DNA of 64,000 nt. Origin: Eledone cirrhosa. Its lineage: Eukaryota. Below are positions 28,563 to 49,307 of the stretch, piece by piece (position 1 is the stretch's first letter; every line of letters begins with the position of its first letter). Location: contig OZ024742.1 in the NCBI GenBank assembly GCA_964016885.1, forward strand, positions 360,406,001 through 360,470,000, given 5' to 3'. A program made the translations under genes and the position numbers. Below the pieces are notes generated by a model that saw only the letters and a program-made list of their open reading frames with translations, was not told the origin of the DNA and made no database searches.

Positions 28563-29275
28563 TTAGAAAGTGAGGTTTTTTTTACAAAATGAAAAATAAC
28601 CGAGGTGTCCTACACGAGTGGAAGTATAAAGAAAAAGGGATGAAATCGAAAATGCAACTGAAGTCTTATTTTTTTAAAAATATATATTTATTTGGTTCCT
28701 TTACCGGTTTCGCAGTTCTTCTGCTTTTCAAAAGGTGAGTTGAGATGGAGGGTCTGTGGTTTTTTCTCACATCTGGTTGGTCTCTAAATGTTACTTGTTT
28801 TATATGGAAAAACTGGCTCGAAAACCAGGTTTTTCGAGAAGTAATTTGATTGGTTTGTCAATAATTATAATAAATTTCGCGCCAGTTCGCGTTACAATAG
28901 TTCTTCAAATAAGAGAGGGGGGGGGGGGGGGTTGTCACAGGTTGTTTTTTCATATATGAGTGTTTGAATTTCTTTTTACTTGAAAAAATGAGGCTCACGA
29001 AGGCTTTTTTTTGGTTGGTTATTATATTTATTATAATTATTGACAAACCAATCAAATTACTTCTCGAAAAACCTGGTTTTCGAGCCAGTTTTTCCATATA
29101 AAACAAGTAACATTTAGAGACCAACCAGATGTGAGAAAAACCACAGACCCTCCATCTCAACTCACCTTTTGAAAAGCAGAAGAACTGCGAAACCGGTAAA
29201 GGAACCAAATAAATATATATATTTTTAAAAAAATAAGACTTCAGTTGCATTTTCGATTTCATCCCTTTTTCTTAT
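28563..29275. mobile_element. Fold-back element with a U3-A8 hammerhead in each arm
   Basis: Inverted arms ~28630-28872 and ~29027-29272, flanked by (TA)n. Family members at 15068-15230, 31455-31665, 31875-32085 and 35638-35950. Confidence 0.8.
29165..29202 (+). ncRNA. Type I hammerhead ribozyme, U3-A8 core variant
   Basis: CCUU-UUGAAAA-GCAG-AAGAA-CUGC-GAAA-CCGG-UA-AAGG. Copies at 28698-28735(-), 31491-31527(+) and 31909-31946(+). Confidence 0.75.
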
Positions 29276-29300
29276 ATATATATATATATATATATATATA

Positions 29301-29465
29301 TTGTTATACTTGGGGAAGGTCATATTGTTGTAATAATATTGCCAGAAATAATAACAGAAAACACTCACTGTTTGGATGGTTTTCGCTTCTGTATCTTTTA
29401 TATCTCCATAGTTAGTTTATTTGGCAATCAATGTTTGTCATTGACTGGCCAACGGTTAAAAATAC
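29301..29465 (-). mobile_element. Short 3'-terminal element sharing its terminus with the PLE at 41108
   Basis: Terminus (minus strand) atgacc..ccc/ctcaagtataacaat matches 42935-42958. Copies at ~24952-25240 (SINE-interrupted) and 32412-32580. Confidence 0.55.
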
Positions 29466-29611
29466 ACACACATATATATATATATATATATATACATATA
29501 TATATATATATATATATATATATATATGTATATATATATATATATATATATATATATATATATATATATATATATATATATATATATATATATATATATA
29601 TATATATATAT

Positions 29612-30726
29612 ATGAAAGACGTAAAATAAGAAAATTATTAAAATTGACTTACTAAAATTTTCACTCCAACTAATTAGTCTCTGTAAGGGAATAAATATGG
29701 TTACGCAACGCAACCATAGAGAAATCCTTACGTCATCAGGGAGTCTATTCTCAGCTAAGTTCCCAGGCAATGCGTGGACACAAGGAACTCATATAAAAAT
29801 AACTCAGTGGATGGAAAAAAGCGAGCGGGGACTAAATTACAGGACACTAAAAAAATTCACTGCCTACTTGGTCAGTGGCAAATTCTAAAGAATCAATCAC
29901 GTGACACTGAGGTTAATCAGTGAGGAGTGGAGTGGTAATAAGACAAGAGCCTAAAGACTACCATGAACCATAGCAGTAATTTCGGCAAGTTTTGCTCAAC
30001 AAATAATTTAGAGATAAATATAAAGAATTAGTATATCTACCAACATATGTATACAGATGCATACCTATGCTAGCAAATATATATGTTATGTCTTAGTAAC
30101 TTTGTGGTTCTATGCAAGGGGATGCAGAACAATTATATGAAAGACGTAAAATAAGAAAATTATTAAAATTTGTTGGTAGATATACTAATTCTTTATATTT
30201 ATCTCCAAATTATTTGTTGAGCAAAACTTGCCGAAATTACTGCTATGGTTCATGGTAGTAGTTAGGCTCTTGTCTTATTACCACTCCACTCCTCACTAAT
30301 TAACCTCAGTGTCACGTGATTGATTCTTTAGAATTTGCCACTGACCAAGTAGGCAGTGAATTTTTTCAGTGTCCTGGAATTTAGTCCCCGCTCGCTTTTT
30401 TCCATCCACTGAATTATTTTTATATGAGTTCCTTGTGTCCACGCATTACCTGGGAACTTAGCTGAGAATAGAGTCCCTGATGACGTAAGGTATTCTCTAT
30501 GGTTGCGTTGCGTAACCATATTTATTCCCTTACAGAAACTAATTAGTTGGAGTGAAAATTTTAGTAAGTAAGCCAATTTTAATAATTTTCTTATTTTACG
30601 TCTTTCATATAATTGTTCTGCATCCCCTTGCATAGAACCACAAAGTTAAAGTTACTAAGACATAGCATATATATTTGCTAGCATAGGTATACATCTGTAT
30701 ACATATGTTGGTAGATATACTAATTT
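29612..30726. mobile_element. Retrozyme-like element family R1: 525-bp monomer, tandem then inverted
   Basis: atgaaagacgtaaaataag at 29612 and 30137; inversion at ~30170; HHRs at 29663-29744(-) and 30473-30553(+). Confidence 0.8.
30473..30553 (+). ncRNA. Type I hammerhead ribozyme with extended helix II (family R1)
   Basis: UCC-CUGAUGA-C-GUAAGG..UAUGGUUGCG-UUG-CGUAACCAUA..CCUUAC-A-GAAA-CUAAUUAG-UU-GGA. Confidence 0.8.
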
Positions 30727-30796
30727 ATATATATATATATATATATATATATATATATATATATATATATATATATATATATATATATATATATAT

Positions 30797-46841: not shown

Positions 46842-47850
46842 ATGCGCCATGCGAACTGTTGCCTACGCACATACGTCGTGTATAAGATAGAATGTAACAA
46901 GTGCAACCAATACTATATAGGTAGCACAATCCGACCTTTGCACATCCGGATCAAGAAACACACTAAAACCAGGGCCTCGTCTTTCCGGAAACACATAGAC
47001 AAATGCGGAAACAAAGACGGAAGGCCCATTGTCACAATTCTAGCGACTGAAAGAAACGTCGGCACGTTACGTATCAAGGAAGCACTTTGGATCAAACGCC
47101 TAGAGCCACAAATAAACAATCGATCCGAGAGAAGCGAAATGAGGTGGTTGGTTTAAGTTAACAAACGATGGAGCAACACACGCACACACACACAAGCGAG
47201 ACAGCAACACACCCACACAAACACACACACAGTAGCATTCCACCATACGAACATACTACACTGCCAACACAGAGGAACAAGGCAACAACACACGCACACA
47301 CACACACTCAAGCGAGACAACAATACACGCACACACACACACACACACAGTAACATTCAACAAACAGGCAGAGAATGGACTGACAGCTAGCGCTACCCCA
47401 CTCCCACAATTGAAAGAACTACTTCGGCCGCTGACCTCTGCCCGACCGACCCTATTTCATGCGCACGCGCGTTCTGCTGAATACCTCAGATATTCAAAAC
47501 AACGAACAGCGGAGGACGCGTTTCGCACCTTTCCGACAGACAACCTTTCCCCCAACCCGGAAAAAAACCCCAGTTGATGGATGTGAATCCGAAATATATA
47601 GGGACAATTAAATCTCTCACAAGGTAACTTTCTCTCGTGTTGTTGTTTTTATTTTATCCTTTATGCTCTTTCCTTCATTCCTCTACACGTCTTATACACG
47701 CAACGCATCTCAACGTACACCCACTTACATCTCTCTCTCCACCGCCGGATCTTGTTACCCGGAGATTTACCCATTTGCATTGTCGACTTAAACGACTTAA
47801 AGAAATTTACCTTATTATTCCACAATGCTTCAAGCAAACTTCAATACTCT
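46842..47850 (+). mobile_element. 5'-truncated PLE: GIY-YIG fragment plus tail
   Basis: ORF 46842-47156 VVYKIECNKCNQYYIGSTIRPLHIRI..H..LRIKEALWI..PQIN. Degenerate HHR at 47568-47603 (CCC-CAGUUGA-U-GGAU-GUGA-AUCC-GAAA-UAUA-UA-GGG). Confidence 0.8.
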
Positions 47851-47955
47851 CTTATATATATATATATATATATATATATATATATATATATATATATATA
47901 TATATATATATATATATATATATATATATATATATATATATATATATATATATAT

Positions 47956-48442
47956 ATGAAAGACGTAAAATAAGAAAATTTTAAAATTAAAAATTAACTT
48001 ACTTACTAAAATTTTCACTCCAACTAATTAGTTTCTCTAAGGGGATAAATATAGTTACGTAACATAACTATAGAGAATTCCTTACGTCATCAGGGAGTCT
48101 ATTCTCAGCTAAGTTCCCAGGCAATGCGCGGACACTAGGAACCCATATAAAAATAATAATTCAGTGGATGGAATAAAGCTAGCGAGGACTAAATTCCAAA
48201 GCACTGAAAAAATTCACTGCCTCTTTGGTCAATGGCAGATTCTAAAGAATCAATCACGTGACACTGAGTGAACATTTTAGTAAGTAAGTTAATTTTTAAT
48301 TTTAAAATTTTCTTATTTTACGTCTTTCATATAATTGTTCTGCATCCCCTTGCATAGAACCACAAAGGTACTAAGACATAACATATATATTTGCTAGCAT
48401 GGGTATACATCTGTATAGATATGTTGGTAGATATACTAATTC
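47956..48442. mobile_element. Family R1 partial plus inverted copy
   Basis: HHR at 48017-48098(-); inversion at ~48270. Confidence 0.75.
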
Positions 48443-49214
48443 TCTCTCTCTCTCTCTTTCTCTCTCTCTCTCTCTCTCTCTCTCTATATATATATATATA
48501 TATATATATATATATATATATATTAATCGATCGACTTTCGTCAAATCGGACCGAGAAAACAATGTTTCCGTTGGTCTTTCCAATTGCTAATACTATCTAT
48601 CGGTCGCAACTCCAGGTAGAAGGAGCAACGTGAAATAAAGTGTCTTGTTCAAGGACATAACGCATCGCCCGGTCTGTGAATCGAACTGACAACCTCACTT
48701 TATATCCATGTAGGAGAACCCCTACTGATGCGCTGAACGAGTGTGACTTTTTAGTCCAGCCAGTGACTTGAAAGCTCTGGTACAAACACTACACTTGTGA
48801 CAATCATTGACACATAGTGCTGGACCCATGGTACCATGTGATGACAAGTGCAGAGAGATCTCCAGATATAAAGCAATGCCTGTGCCGTGGAGCTTTTATA
48901 GTGAGCAAAGGCACTGCACAAAGCCAGTCCCACTCTCTTAACCAAGATGATATTTACCAAAAAGAAGAACAAGTCAACATCATTGGATACCATCAGAATA
49001 TATATGTATATATATGTATATGTATATGTATATATATATATATATATATATATATATATATATATATATATATATATGTATATGTGTGTGTGTGTGTGTG
49101 TGTGTGTGTGTGTGTGTGTGTGTGTGTGCGTGTGTGTGTGTGTGTGTGTGTGTGTGTGTGTGTGTGTGTGTGTGTGTGTGTGTGTGTGTGTGTTTTGAAA
49201 CTCTTAATGAGGAA

Positions 49215-49307
49215 TCCTCTTGATAAGTCGGCAAACCTCACAAAAATACTGTATCTCTGTGATGTAGTGTTTTTGCATAATCTGCCACGAAACTACGTAG
49301 TCGAGGA
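49215..49307 (+). ncRNA. Type I hammerhead ribozyme, U3-A8 core variant, long helix II
   Basis: UCCUC-UUGAUAA-GUCGGCA..CAAAAAUACUGUAUC-UCUGU-GAUGUAGUGUUUUUG..UGCCAC-GAAA-CUACGUAG-UC-GAGGA. Confidence 0.8.

What the first reader, a model, noticed from the sequence alone, without database searches (positions are those of the whole stretch)
29165..49307. Three independent hammerhead families use the U3-A8 core (UUGANAA)
Seen: UUGAAAA (29169, in four good copies), UUGAUAA (31228) and UUGAUAA (49220). Each has intact helices I-III, GAAA and a GUA or GUC site. Known: C3 and G8 form a tertiary Watson-Crick pair in the active hammerhead, so C3U plus G8A is compensatory. Inference: these are functional non-canonical cores that CUGANGA-based searches would miss, recurring in unrelated element families.
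Basis: partly seen in the sequence, partly recalled or inferred. Interest (0 to 1): 0.78.

Follow-up and report, generated by a model that had tools for sequence, protein, structure and literature searches.

The report
Known U-A core Penelope hammerheads
Three repeat families here carry a small hammerhead RNA motif whose core pair is U-A instead of the usual C-G; this swap is already published for Penelope-like jumping genes, and the motifs likely cut RNA only weakly and in pairs.

Summary
The three U3-A8 motifs are real and family-wide, not decayed copies.

Family A (29169): 10,916 genomic matches; 33 have C3, none C3-G8. It is the pseudo-LTR hammerhead of a young, intact Penelope-like element (RT, Zn-finger, GIY-YIG).
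Family B (31228): 156 matches, 321-nt tandem unit. Family C (49220): 6,336 matches, none C3-G8, about 590-nt tandem unit. Both lack a long ORF and resemble retrozymes.
All are type I with a palindromic helix III, so they likely act as dimers.

This is already in print. Perreault 2011 reported natural U3-A8 covariation. Cervera and De la Pena 2014 reported it in Penelope hammerheads, listing the same UUGAUAA and UUGAAAA cores. This scan noted it before in other genomes.

Not shown: cleavage and independent origin. Fixation in a family does not prove catalysis here. A fourth family (34533) amplified mostly with an unpaired C3-A8 core, and a fifth (47571) is fixed for CAGUUGA. In family A, U3 can also pair with the cleavage-site A17. 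These side observations are more interesting than the finding.

Verdict: new members of a known kind; interest 0.22.

The parts
29165..29202 (+). Family A type I hammerhead, core UUGAAAA (U3 29169, A8 29174), palindrome ACCGGU, predicted cut after A17 (29198)
28698..28735 (-). Family A hammerhead, identical, in the inverted partner copy
28563..29272 (.). Inverted pair of 5'-truncated family A 3' ends (- copy 28563-29022 with tail, + copy 29026-29272) between (TA)n tracts
   Evidence: 95-100% identity to the full element in L099
31491..31526 (+). Family A hammerhead of the TCTACTT subfamily (helix I 3 bp plus mismatch), in a stub 31456-31665
31909..31946 (+). Family A hammerhead, identical to 29165, in a stub 31872-32083
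35640..35938 (.). Two decayed family A copies in inverted order, helix II broken, core still UUGAAAA
31224..31269 (+). Family B type I hammerhead, core UUGAUAA, extra A before GAAA, 12-nt palindrome, predicted cut after C17 (31265)
30796..31397 (.). Family B insertion: partial - copy 30796-30963 and + copy 31011-31397 of a 321-nt tandem unit without a long ORF, between (TA)n tracts
49215..49307 (+). Family C type I hammerhead, core UUGAUAA, helix II with a bulged C and a long loop, 10-nt palindrome, predicted cut after C17 (49302)
49206..49375 (+). Truncated solo copy of the minor subfamily C' (199 matches) of a ~590-nt tandem unit without a long ORF; 77% identical to the main subfamily
34529..34622 (+).
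32875..33405 (+). 5'-truncated endonuclease-like ORF end 1.1 kb upstream of the family D motif (no Pfam hit; YIG motif and end CxxC/CxH seen by alignment)

Best explanation
The three motifs are type I hammerhead RNA motifs with a U3-A8 core pair, fixed in one intact Penelope-like retrotransposon family (A) and in two tandem repeat families without a long ORF (B, C), and they likely cut the element's RNA slowly, as dimers. Shown: the anatomy, the family-wide U3-A8 state, and for A its place in both pseudo-LTRs of a 4.7-kb element (ORF1 about 409 aa; ORF2 775 aa with RT, Zn-finger linker and GIY-YIG). Inferred from published work: U3-A8 replaces the C3-G8 tertiary pair; two same-strand motifs pair their palindromes into a shared helix III and cleave after GUA (A) or GUC (B, C), releasing unit-length RNA that may be circularised and reverse-transcribed. 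Inferred from insertion structure: B and C are retrozyme-like passengers moved by Penelope-type RT and endonuclease. The window copies are 5'-truncated stubs in a nest of such insertions in (TA)n; B and C have no same-strand partner in the window and are probably inert.
For: Counts: A 10,916 matches, C3 in 33 (all A8), U3 with non-A8 in 43; B 156, with 100 of 100 listed U3 and 99 A8; C 6,336, C3 in 8 (all A8). Parent of A: 3 of 10 fetched 775-aa loci show exact-pattern motifs on both sides of the ORFs, 4,679-4,712 nt apart, with 119-120 of 120 flanking bases identical; ORF2 pairwise identity 99.3-99.9% over 28 pairs; Pfam GIY-YIG above cut-off, RVT_1 E 4.9e-6 below cut-off. Inverted 5'-truncated pairs, one-sided tails and (TA)n targets match the PLE description in PMC8557442 (passages). 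Tandem units of 321 and 591 nt with longest ATG ORFs of 28 and 75 aa. Selection on the C motif: two natural units are 372 of 503 identical outside the motif and 31 of 44 in loop II, but 43 of 44 in it; counting only the 25 positions least tied to my search patterns, 24 of 25 match (P about 0.005 by hand at 74%). Perfect palindromes at helix III in all three. Literature: PMC4209133, PMC3088659, PMC6765202 (passages).
Against: No cleavage data for these sequences. In the parts of PMC4209133 that I read, the assayed Schistosoma motif was family Sm1, no U3-A8 motif was named as assayed, and activity was low even as dimers. Family D amplified to 1,314 matches with 68 of 100 listed as C3.A8, a distinct subfamily with linked diagnostic columns; family E is CAGUUGA in 95 of 100 listed of 1,903. 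So elements in this genome spread with cores that break the consensus. In A, U3 pairs with A17 in the MFE (probability 0.52), like the C3-G17 pair presumed to inhibit minimal hammerheads (PMC3884650, one passage). The weaker helix I form of A makes up about half of the depth in DNA run X1. No parent ORF was found for B or C within 1.5 kb. Other short conserved blocks exist in the C unit outside the motif.
Confidence: 0.75

Rival explanations
1. The motifs descend from hammerheads but no longer need to cut. The element keeps the fold for another job (RT or RNP recognition, RNA dimerisation) or carries it passively, so U3-A8 is one of several tolerated core states.
For: Family D subfamily with C3.A8 (68 of 100 listed); family E fixed CAGUUGA; a further CAGAAGA group; U3-A17 pairing in A. 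Naiad PLEs proliferate without canonical hammerheads (PMC8557442, passage). Cervera and De la Pena do not rule out functions other than cleavage.
Against: A, B and C keep every other core base, the G10.1-C11.1 pair, UH17 and a complementary 3-8 pair. The C core was kept between subfamilies 26% diverged. Engineered U3-A8 cores are reported active in vitro (PMC3088659 citing its ref. 32). A descriptor that left positions 3 and 8 free returned C3-G8 and U3-A8 families, and other pairs only as 1-4 copies; it missed D and E.
Confidence: 0.22
2. These copies are individually mutated versions of CUGANGA families.
For: None found. Seven C3-G8 motifs lie in the same window, but in other families.
Against: 0 C3-G8 among 10,916 A and 6,336 C matches; 0 of 100 listed B. 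The patterns fix the flanks exactly, so a diverged C3-G8 sister family would not be seen.
Confidence: 0.01
3. On the separate question of origin: U3-A8 arose once in a Penelope lineage and A, B, C (and D) inherited it, so 'three independent families' is not three independent events.
For: All share Penelope-type insertion structure; B and C share UUGAUAAG and GUC; C and D share a layout (long loop II, bulge near the base of helix II, GUC-GRGG).
Against: No BLAST similarity among A, B, C, D beyond simple-repeat words. The endonuclease ends next to A and D differ in type: A has a CCHH-type end, D a CxxC/CxH end like the Hydra clade as described in PMC8557442 (no tree built).
Confidence: 0.35

Closest known systems
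U3-A8 minimal hammerheads of Cercyon Penelope-like elements, Schistosoma mansoni (Cervera and De la Pena 2014, PMC4209133)
   Same: Type I, 4-5-bp helix I, palindrome in place of a stable helix III, place in pseudo-LTRs, opposite-strand pairs 100-700 bp apart, mostly solo truncated copies. Fig. S3 lists cores UUGAUAA(A) and UUGAAAA(A).
   Different: The listed S. mansoni motifs have an extra base after A9 and no loop III. A and C have no extra base, B has it before G12, and all keep 6-12-nt palindromes, like the shrimp, fly and mosquito variants of that paper. A has A17; the two listed U3-A8 motifs have G17 and U17.
Natural U3-A8 covariants (Perreault et al. 2011, PMC3088659)
   Same: Same compensatory core change, described as natural and as active in engineered form.
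   Different: Section 8 gives no link to Penelope elements or dimers.
EN+ Penelope-like elements with a Zn-finger linker (Neptune/Nematis type; Craig et al. 2021, PMC8557442)
   Same: Family A: C-terminal GIY-YIG, CX4CXXC linker, upstream ORF1 overlapping in another frame, pseudo-LTRs, inverted truncated copies, tail, (TA)n targets.
   Different: Clade not placed by a tree; the tail is about 65 nt against the 30-40 bp described.
Metazoan non-LTR retrozymes (Cervera and De la Pena 2020, PMC7229834; bioRxiv 10.64898/2026.07.22.740005)
   Same: B and C: tandem units without a long ORF, one type I hammerhead per unit, GC 33% and 41%.
   Different: U3-A8 core; the C unit (590 nt) is longer than the about 300-nt monomers in the passages read; arrays seen are short (2-5 units) and often inverted; circular RNA not shown.

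Membership tests
Type I hammerhead motif | Three helices round a junction, ends in helix I | tested here: met
   Helix I 4/4/5 bp and helix II 4/4/6 bp in A/B/C; helix III 1-2 bp in an A monomer, 3-4 bp in B and C
Type I hammerhead motif | Core U4 G5 A6 A9, G12 A13 A14, A15.1-U16.1, H17, G10.1-C11.1 | tested here: met
   All present in A, B, C; B has one extra A before G12
Type I hammerhead motif | Watson-Crick complementarity of positions 3 and 8 | tested here: met
   U3-A8 in at least 99 of 100 listed copies of each family; not met in 70 of 100 listed family D copies
Type I hammerhead motif | Match to an Rfam hammerhead model | tested here: inconclusive
   No hammerhead among the 150 rows shown of 256; 106 weaker rows not shown
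Hammerhead ribozyme | Site-specific self-cleavage | not testable with these tools
   Needs in vitro kinetics or RNA end mapping
Fast, tertiary-stabilised hammerhead | Loop I-loop II contact | not tested
   None obvious by eye; no formal search
PLE minimal (dimeric) hammerhead | Palindrome at helix III | tested here: met
   ACCGGU, ACAAGGCCUUGU, ACUACGUAGU; duplex energies -8.3, -19.5, -12.9 kcal/mol
PLE minimal (dimeric) hammerhead | Located in pseudo-LTRs flanking an RT-GIY-YIG ORF | tested here: met
   Family A: L098, L099, L102. Not shown for B or C
EN+ Penelope-like element (family A) | RT plus GIY-YIG ORF, pseudo-LTRs, inverted 5'-truncated copies | tested here: met
Neptune clade (family A) | RT phylogeny | not tested
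   Only the linker motif was seen
Non-LTR retrozyme (B, C) | Non-coding tandem units, each with a type I hammerhead | tested here: met
   321-nt and 590-591-nt spacings
Non-LTR retrozyme (B, C) | Monomeric linear and circular RNA in cells | not testable with these tools
   Needs RNA from the organism

The most novel reading that the evidence does not exclude
Penelope hammerheads in this genome form a natural series of core states (C3-G8, U3-A8, C3.A8, CAGUUGA, CAGAAGA), each amplified to many copies. Either the 3-8 pair and U4/A6 matter far less in dimeric PLE hammerheads than in textbook ones, or the motif serves retrotransposition without cutting. In family A, U3-A17 pairing would be a built-in lock that keeps the monomer off until two copies pair. 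An intact young element makes this testable.
Probability: 0.2. Interest if true: 0.6.

Novelty: new member of a known kind. Interest (0 to 1): 0.22.

Why it matters
As stated, the finding adds three families to a variant described in 2011 and 2014, so it matters little. It has practical value: about 17,400 exact-pattern motifs in one genome (10,916 + 156 + 6,336) escape CUGANGA searches, and family A offers an intact, very young element for testing what the hammerhead does in Penelope retrotransposition, which PMC8557442 calls unclear. The side families with broken cores bear on that open question more than U3-A8 does.

Tried and rejected
Rfam scan: only microsatellite-driven miRNA-like rows were shown. 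The repeat finder was swamped by (TA)n. A DNA similarity search of the genome with family A returned nothing because common words are skipped; exact patterns were used instead.

Expression: no RNA holder listed for the family A element, which is no evidence either way. Laying three contig runs showed only DNA-level variation; no change at U3 or A8 was among the 40 rows shown, 333 rows were not shown.

Parent ORFs for B and C: tblastn with the A ORF2 on 50 loci gave one hit, to an unrelated nested PLE (L053); none on 30 C' loci.

'U3-A8 is the majority class in this genome': considered, not claimed. A strict descriptor on 400 kb of evenly spaced DNA gave 2 U3-A8 and 1 C3-G8, but the relaxed one showed C3-G8 rows in at least 5 of those 40 loci.

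Single-base variant counts in A (33 C3, 43 non-A8) are read as mutation after insertion, not as evidence of selection.

Lunse et al. 2017 (PMC5785218) is not held; I saw its title only, in a reference list. It may describe some of these variants. Searches for U4A/A6U hammerheads and for Terminon cores found nothing on the CAGUUGA core (listings only). The third part of the 2014 supplement and all figures were not seen.
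Full report
Setting. The window lies at G000:C3:360406001-360470000 in a 2,996-Mb assembly. It is AT-rich, full of microsatellites, and holds a nest of Penelope-like element (PLE) fragments, among them an RT-GIY-YIG ORF end at 41033-42457 and a GIY-YIG end at 46839-47156. I did not identify the organism.

Observation. All three motifs are at the stated places. Each is a type I hammerhead layout with U3 and A8, the other core bases intact, G10.1-C11.1, and GUA (A) or GUC (B, C). Six of 63 TTGANAA words in the window pass my relaxed descriptor; 100 shuffles gave 2 such hits in total. Family A has three copies with a 4-bp helix I, one with 3 bp plus a mismatch, and two decayed copies. 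Helix III is a perfect palindrome in each family. For A the monomer fold is 7 kcal/mol worse than the MFE, while the palindrome pairs between copies at -8.3 kcal/mol. B has an extra A before GAAA; C has a bulged C and a long loop II.

Is U3-A8 the family state? Yes. With positions 3, 7 and 8 left free, A gives 10,916 matches; 33 have C3, all with A8; 43 have U3 with another base at 8; A3 and G3 were not counted genome-wide (1 G3 among the first 100 listed). B gives 156 matches; 100 of 100 listed have U3, 99 have A8. C gives 6,336; 99 of 100 listed are U3-A8 and one U3.G8; 8 have C3, all with A8. Backward-read controls gave 0. The patterns fix the flanks, so these are lower bounds and blind to diverged sister families.

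What carries them. Family A: locus L001 showed a GIY-YIG end about 1 kb upstream of the motif. That peptide found many 775-aa open frames. In ten fetched loci the layout is motif, tail, ORF1 (409-410 aa where whole), ORF2 (775 aa), 3' UTR, motif; three show exact-pattern motifs on both sides, 4,679-4,712 nt apart. ORF2 has RT and GIY-YIG domains and a CX4CXXC linker; eight copies are 99.3-99.9% identical, so the family is young. Most copies are short 3' stubs, often as inverted pairs with the tail on one side, ending in (TA)n; the window's 28563-29272 pair is one. Family B is a 321-nt tandem unit and C a 591-nt tandem unit, with longest ATG ORFs of 28 and 75 aa. Both occur as short arrays and inverted pairs. 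The window's C copy belongs to a minor subfamily (199 matches, 590-nt unit). Between one natural unit of each subfamily, identity is 372 of 503 outside the motif, 31 of 44 in loop II and 43 of 44 in the motif. Part of that is built in by my patterns; the 25 least conditioned positions give 24 matches (P about 0.005, by hand), which suggests selection on the motif. I found no parent ORF for B or C and no DNA similarity among A, B and C beyond simple words.

Mechanism. Shown: anatomy, fixation, genomic context. Inferred from the literature: C3-G8 is a core pair and U3-A8 replaces it; PLE hammerheads with palindromic helix III work as dimers at low rates and may release or circularise unit-length RNA (PMC4209133; PMC6765202). 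I put 0.75 on A, B and C being weak dimeric ribozymes in their parent transcripts. The window stubs are probably inert, though three A copies lie on one strand within 2.8 kb.

Results against 'functional'. A fourth family, D (34529-34622), lies 1.1 kb behind an endonuclease-like ORF end. It has 1,314 matches; of the first 100 listed, counted by hand, 30 are U3-A8, 68 C3.A8 and 2 A3.A8. In 21 aligned copies (17 kept after my truncation filter, 4 dropped) U3 and C3 copies differ at several linked columns, so both are source lineages (the small tree was not clean). CUGAGAA could also be read as C3-G8 with N7 missing and an extra A. A fifth family, E (47568-47603), 0.4 kb behind a GIY-YIG end, has normal helices, GAAA and a palindrome, but the core CAGUUGA in 95 of 100 listed of 1,903 matches. 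So amplification does not prove a working core. In A, U3 pairs with A17 in the MFE (probability 0.52), like the C3-G17 pair presumed to inhibit minimal hammerheads (PMC3884650). The weaker helix I form of A is common (5 of 30 loci; about half the depth in run X1).

Comparison with what is known. Perreault 2011 (PMC3088659; section 8 read whole, plus passages) reports natural U3-A8 covariation and cites earlier in vitro activity. Cervera and De la Pena 2014 (PMC4209133; parts 1-2 of 4 of the text, parts 1-2 of 3 of the supplement) report U3-A8 in Schistosoma Cercyon PLEs, about 1,300 hits with a dedicated descriptor, and list UUGAUAA(A) and UUGAAAA(A) cores in Fig. S3. Other papers seen: PMC8557442, PMC7229834, PMC6765202 (passages), PMC3884650 (one passage), bioRxiv 10.64898/2026.07.22.740005 (part 1 of 5). 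The numbering scheme and the role of C3-G8 in the crystal structure rest partly on my own knowledge. Earlier notes of this scan report the same variant in other genomes (unchecked); I had reached this reading before looking. I found nothing in print on CAGUUGA in two searches, but Lunse 2017 was not available, so that absence is weak.

Verdict. Observation confirmed; interpretation partly supported; new members of a known kind; interest 0.22. The most novel open reading, that PLE hammerheads here tolerate or no longer need a canonical core, gets probability 0.2 and interest 0.6.

Noticed in passing
window 47568-47603 (+), behind the GIY-YIG end 46839-47156: Family E: hammerhead layout (CCC/GGG, GGAU/AUCC, GAAA, palindrome AUAUAU, A17) with core CAGUUGA, i.e. 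U4A plus A6U; 1,903 matches, 95 of 100 listed with this core. Cleavage unknown; the best lead in this window.
   Followed up: partly
window 34529-34622 (+); 3' halves at 364, 11863, 32178, 32204, 32894, 49616, 51228, 51248: Family D: U3-A8 and C3.A8 subfamilies both amplified. The helix II 3' strand can pair with the helix III 5' strand as a competing hairpin.
   Followed up: partly
window 43025-43080 (+) and 7274 (-): Group F: hammerhead-like layout with core CAGAAGA (U4A), U.U at the base of a 3-bp helix II and a non-palindromic helix III; seen in more than a dozen places among fetched loci. Not counted genome-wide.
   Followed up: partly
window 30477 (+), 35526 (-), 42755 (+), 56168 (-), 56801 (+), 57355 (+), 61498 (-): Seven canonical C3-G8 type I hammerheads. 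Five belong to a group with palindrome ACUAAUUAGU and an extra base on both sides of helix II; 56801 and 57355 are 554 nt apart.
   Followed up: partly
window 41033-42457 (+): 5'-truncated PLE ORF, 474 aa open (RT end, Zn-finger linker, GIY-YIG-like end), followed 300 nt later by a C3-G8 hammerhead.
   Followed up: partly
window 3150-4670: Inverted pair of PLE endonuclease-like ORF ends (3156-3455 -, 4330-4638 +), with a 67% DNA match to family A ORF2 at 3701-3897.
   Followed up: no
L099:1232-2461 and 2371-4698: Family A has a 409-aa ORF1 with no Pfam hit overlapping ORF2 by about 90 nt in another frame; ORF2 has no early ATG, which suggests a frameshift or splice.
   Followed up: no
window 18266-20457, 20933-22372, 23701-24554: Minisatellite arrays with 33-, 34- and 81-nt units.
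   Followed up: no
window 36087-36274, 44914-45101, 48485-48672; also 36224-36297, 36673-36746: Short interspersed repeat that follows (TA)n tracts (families D13 and D19); not identified.
   Followed up: no
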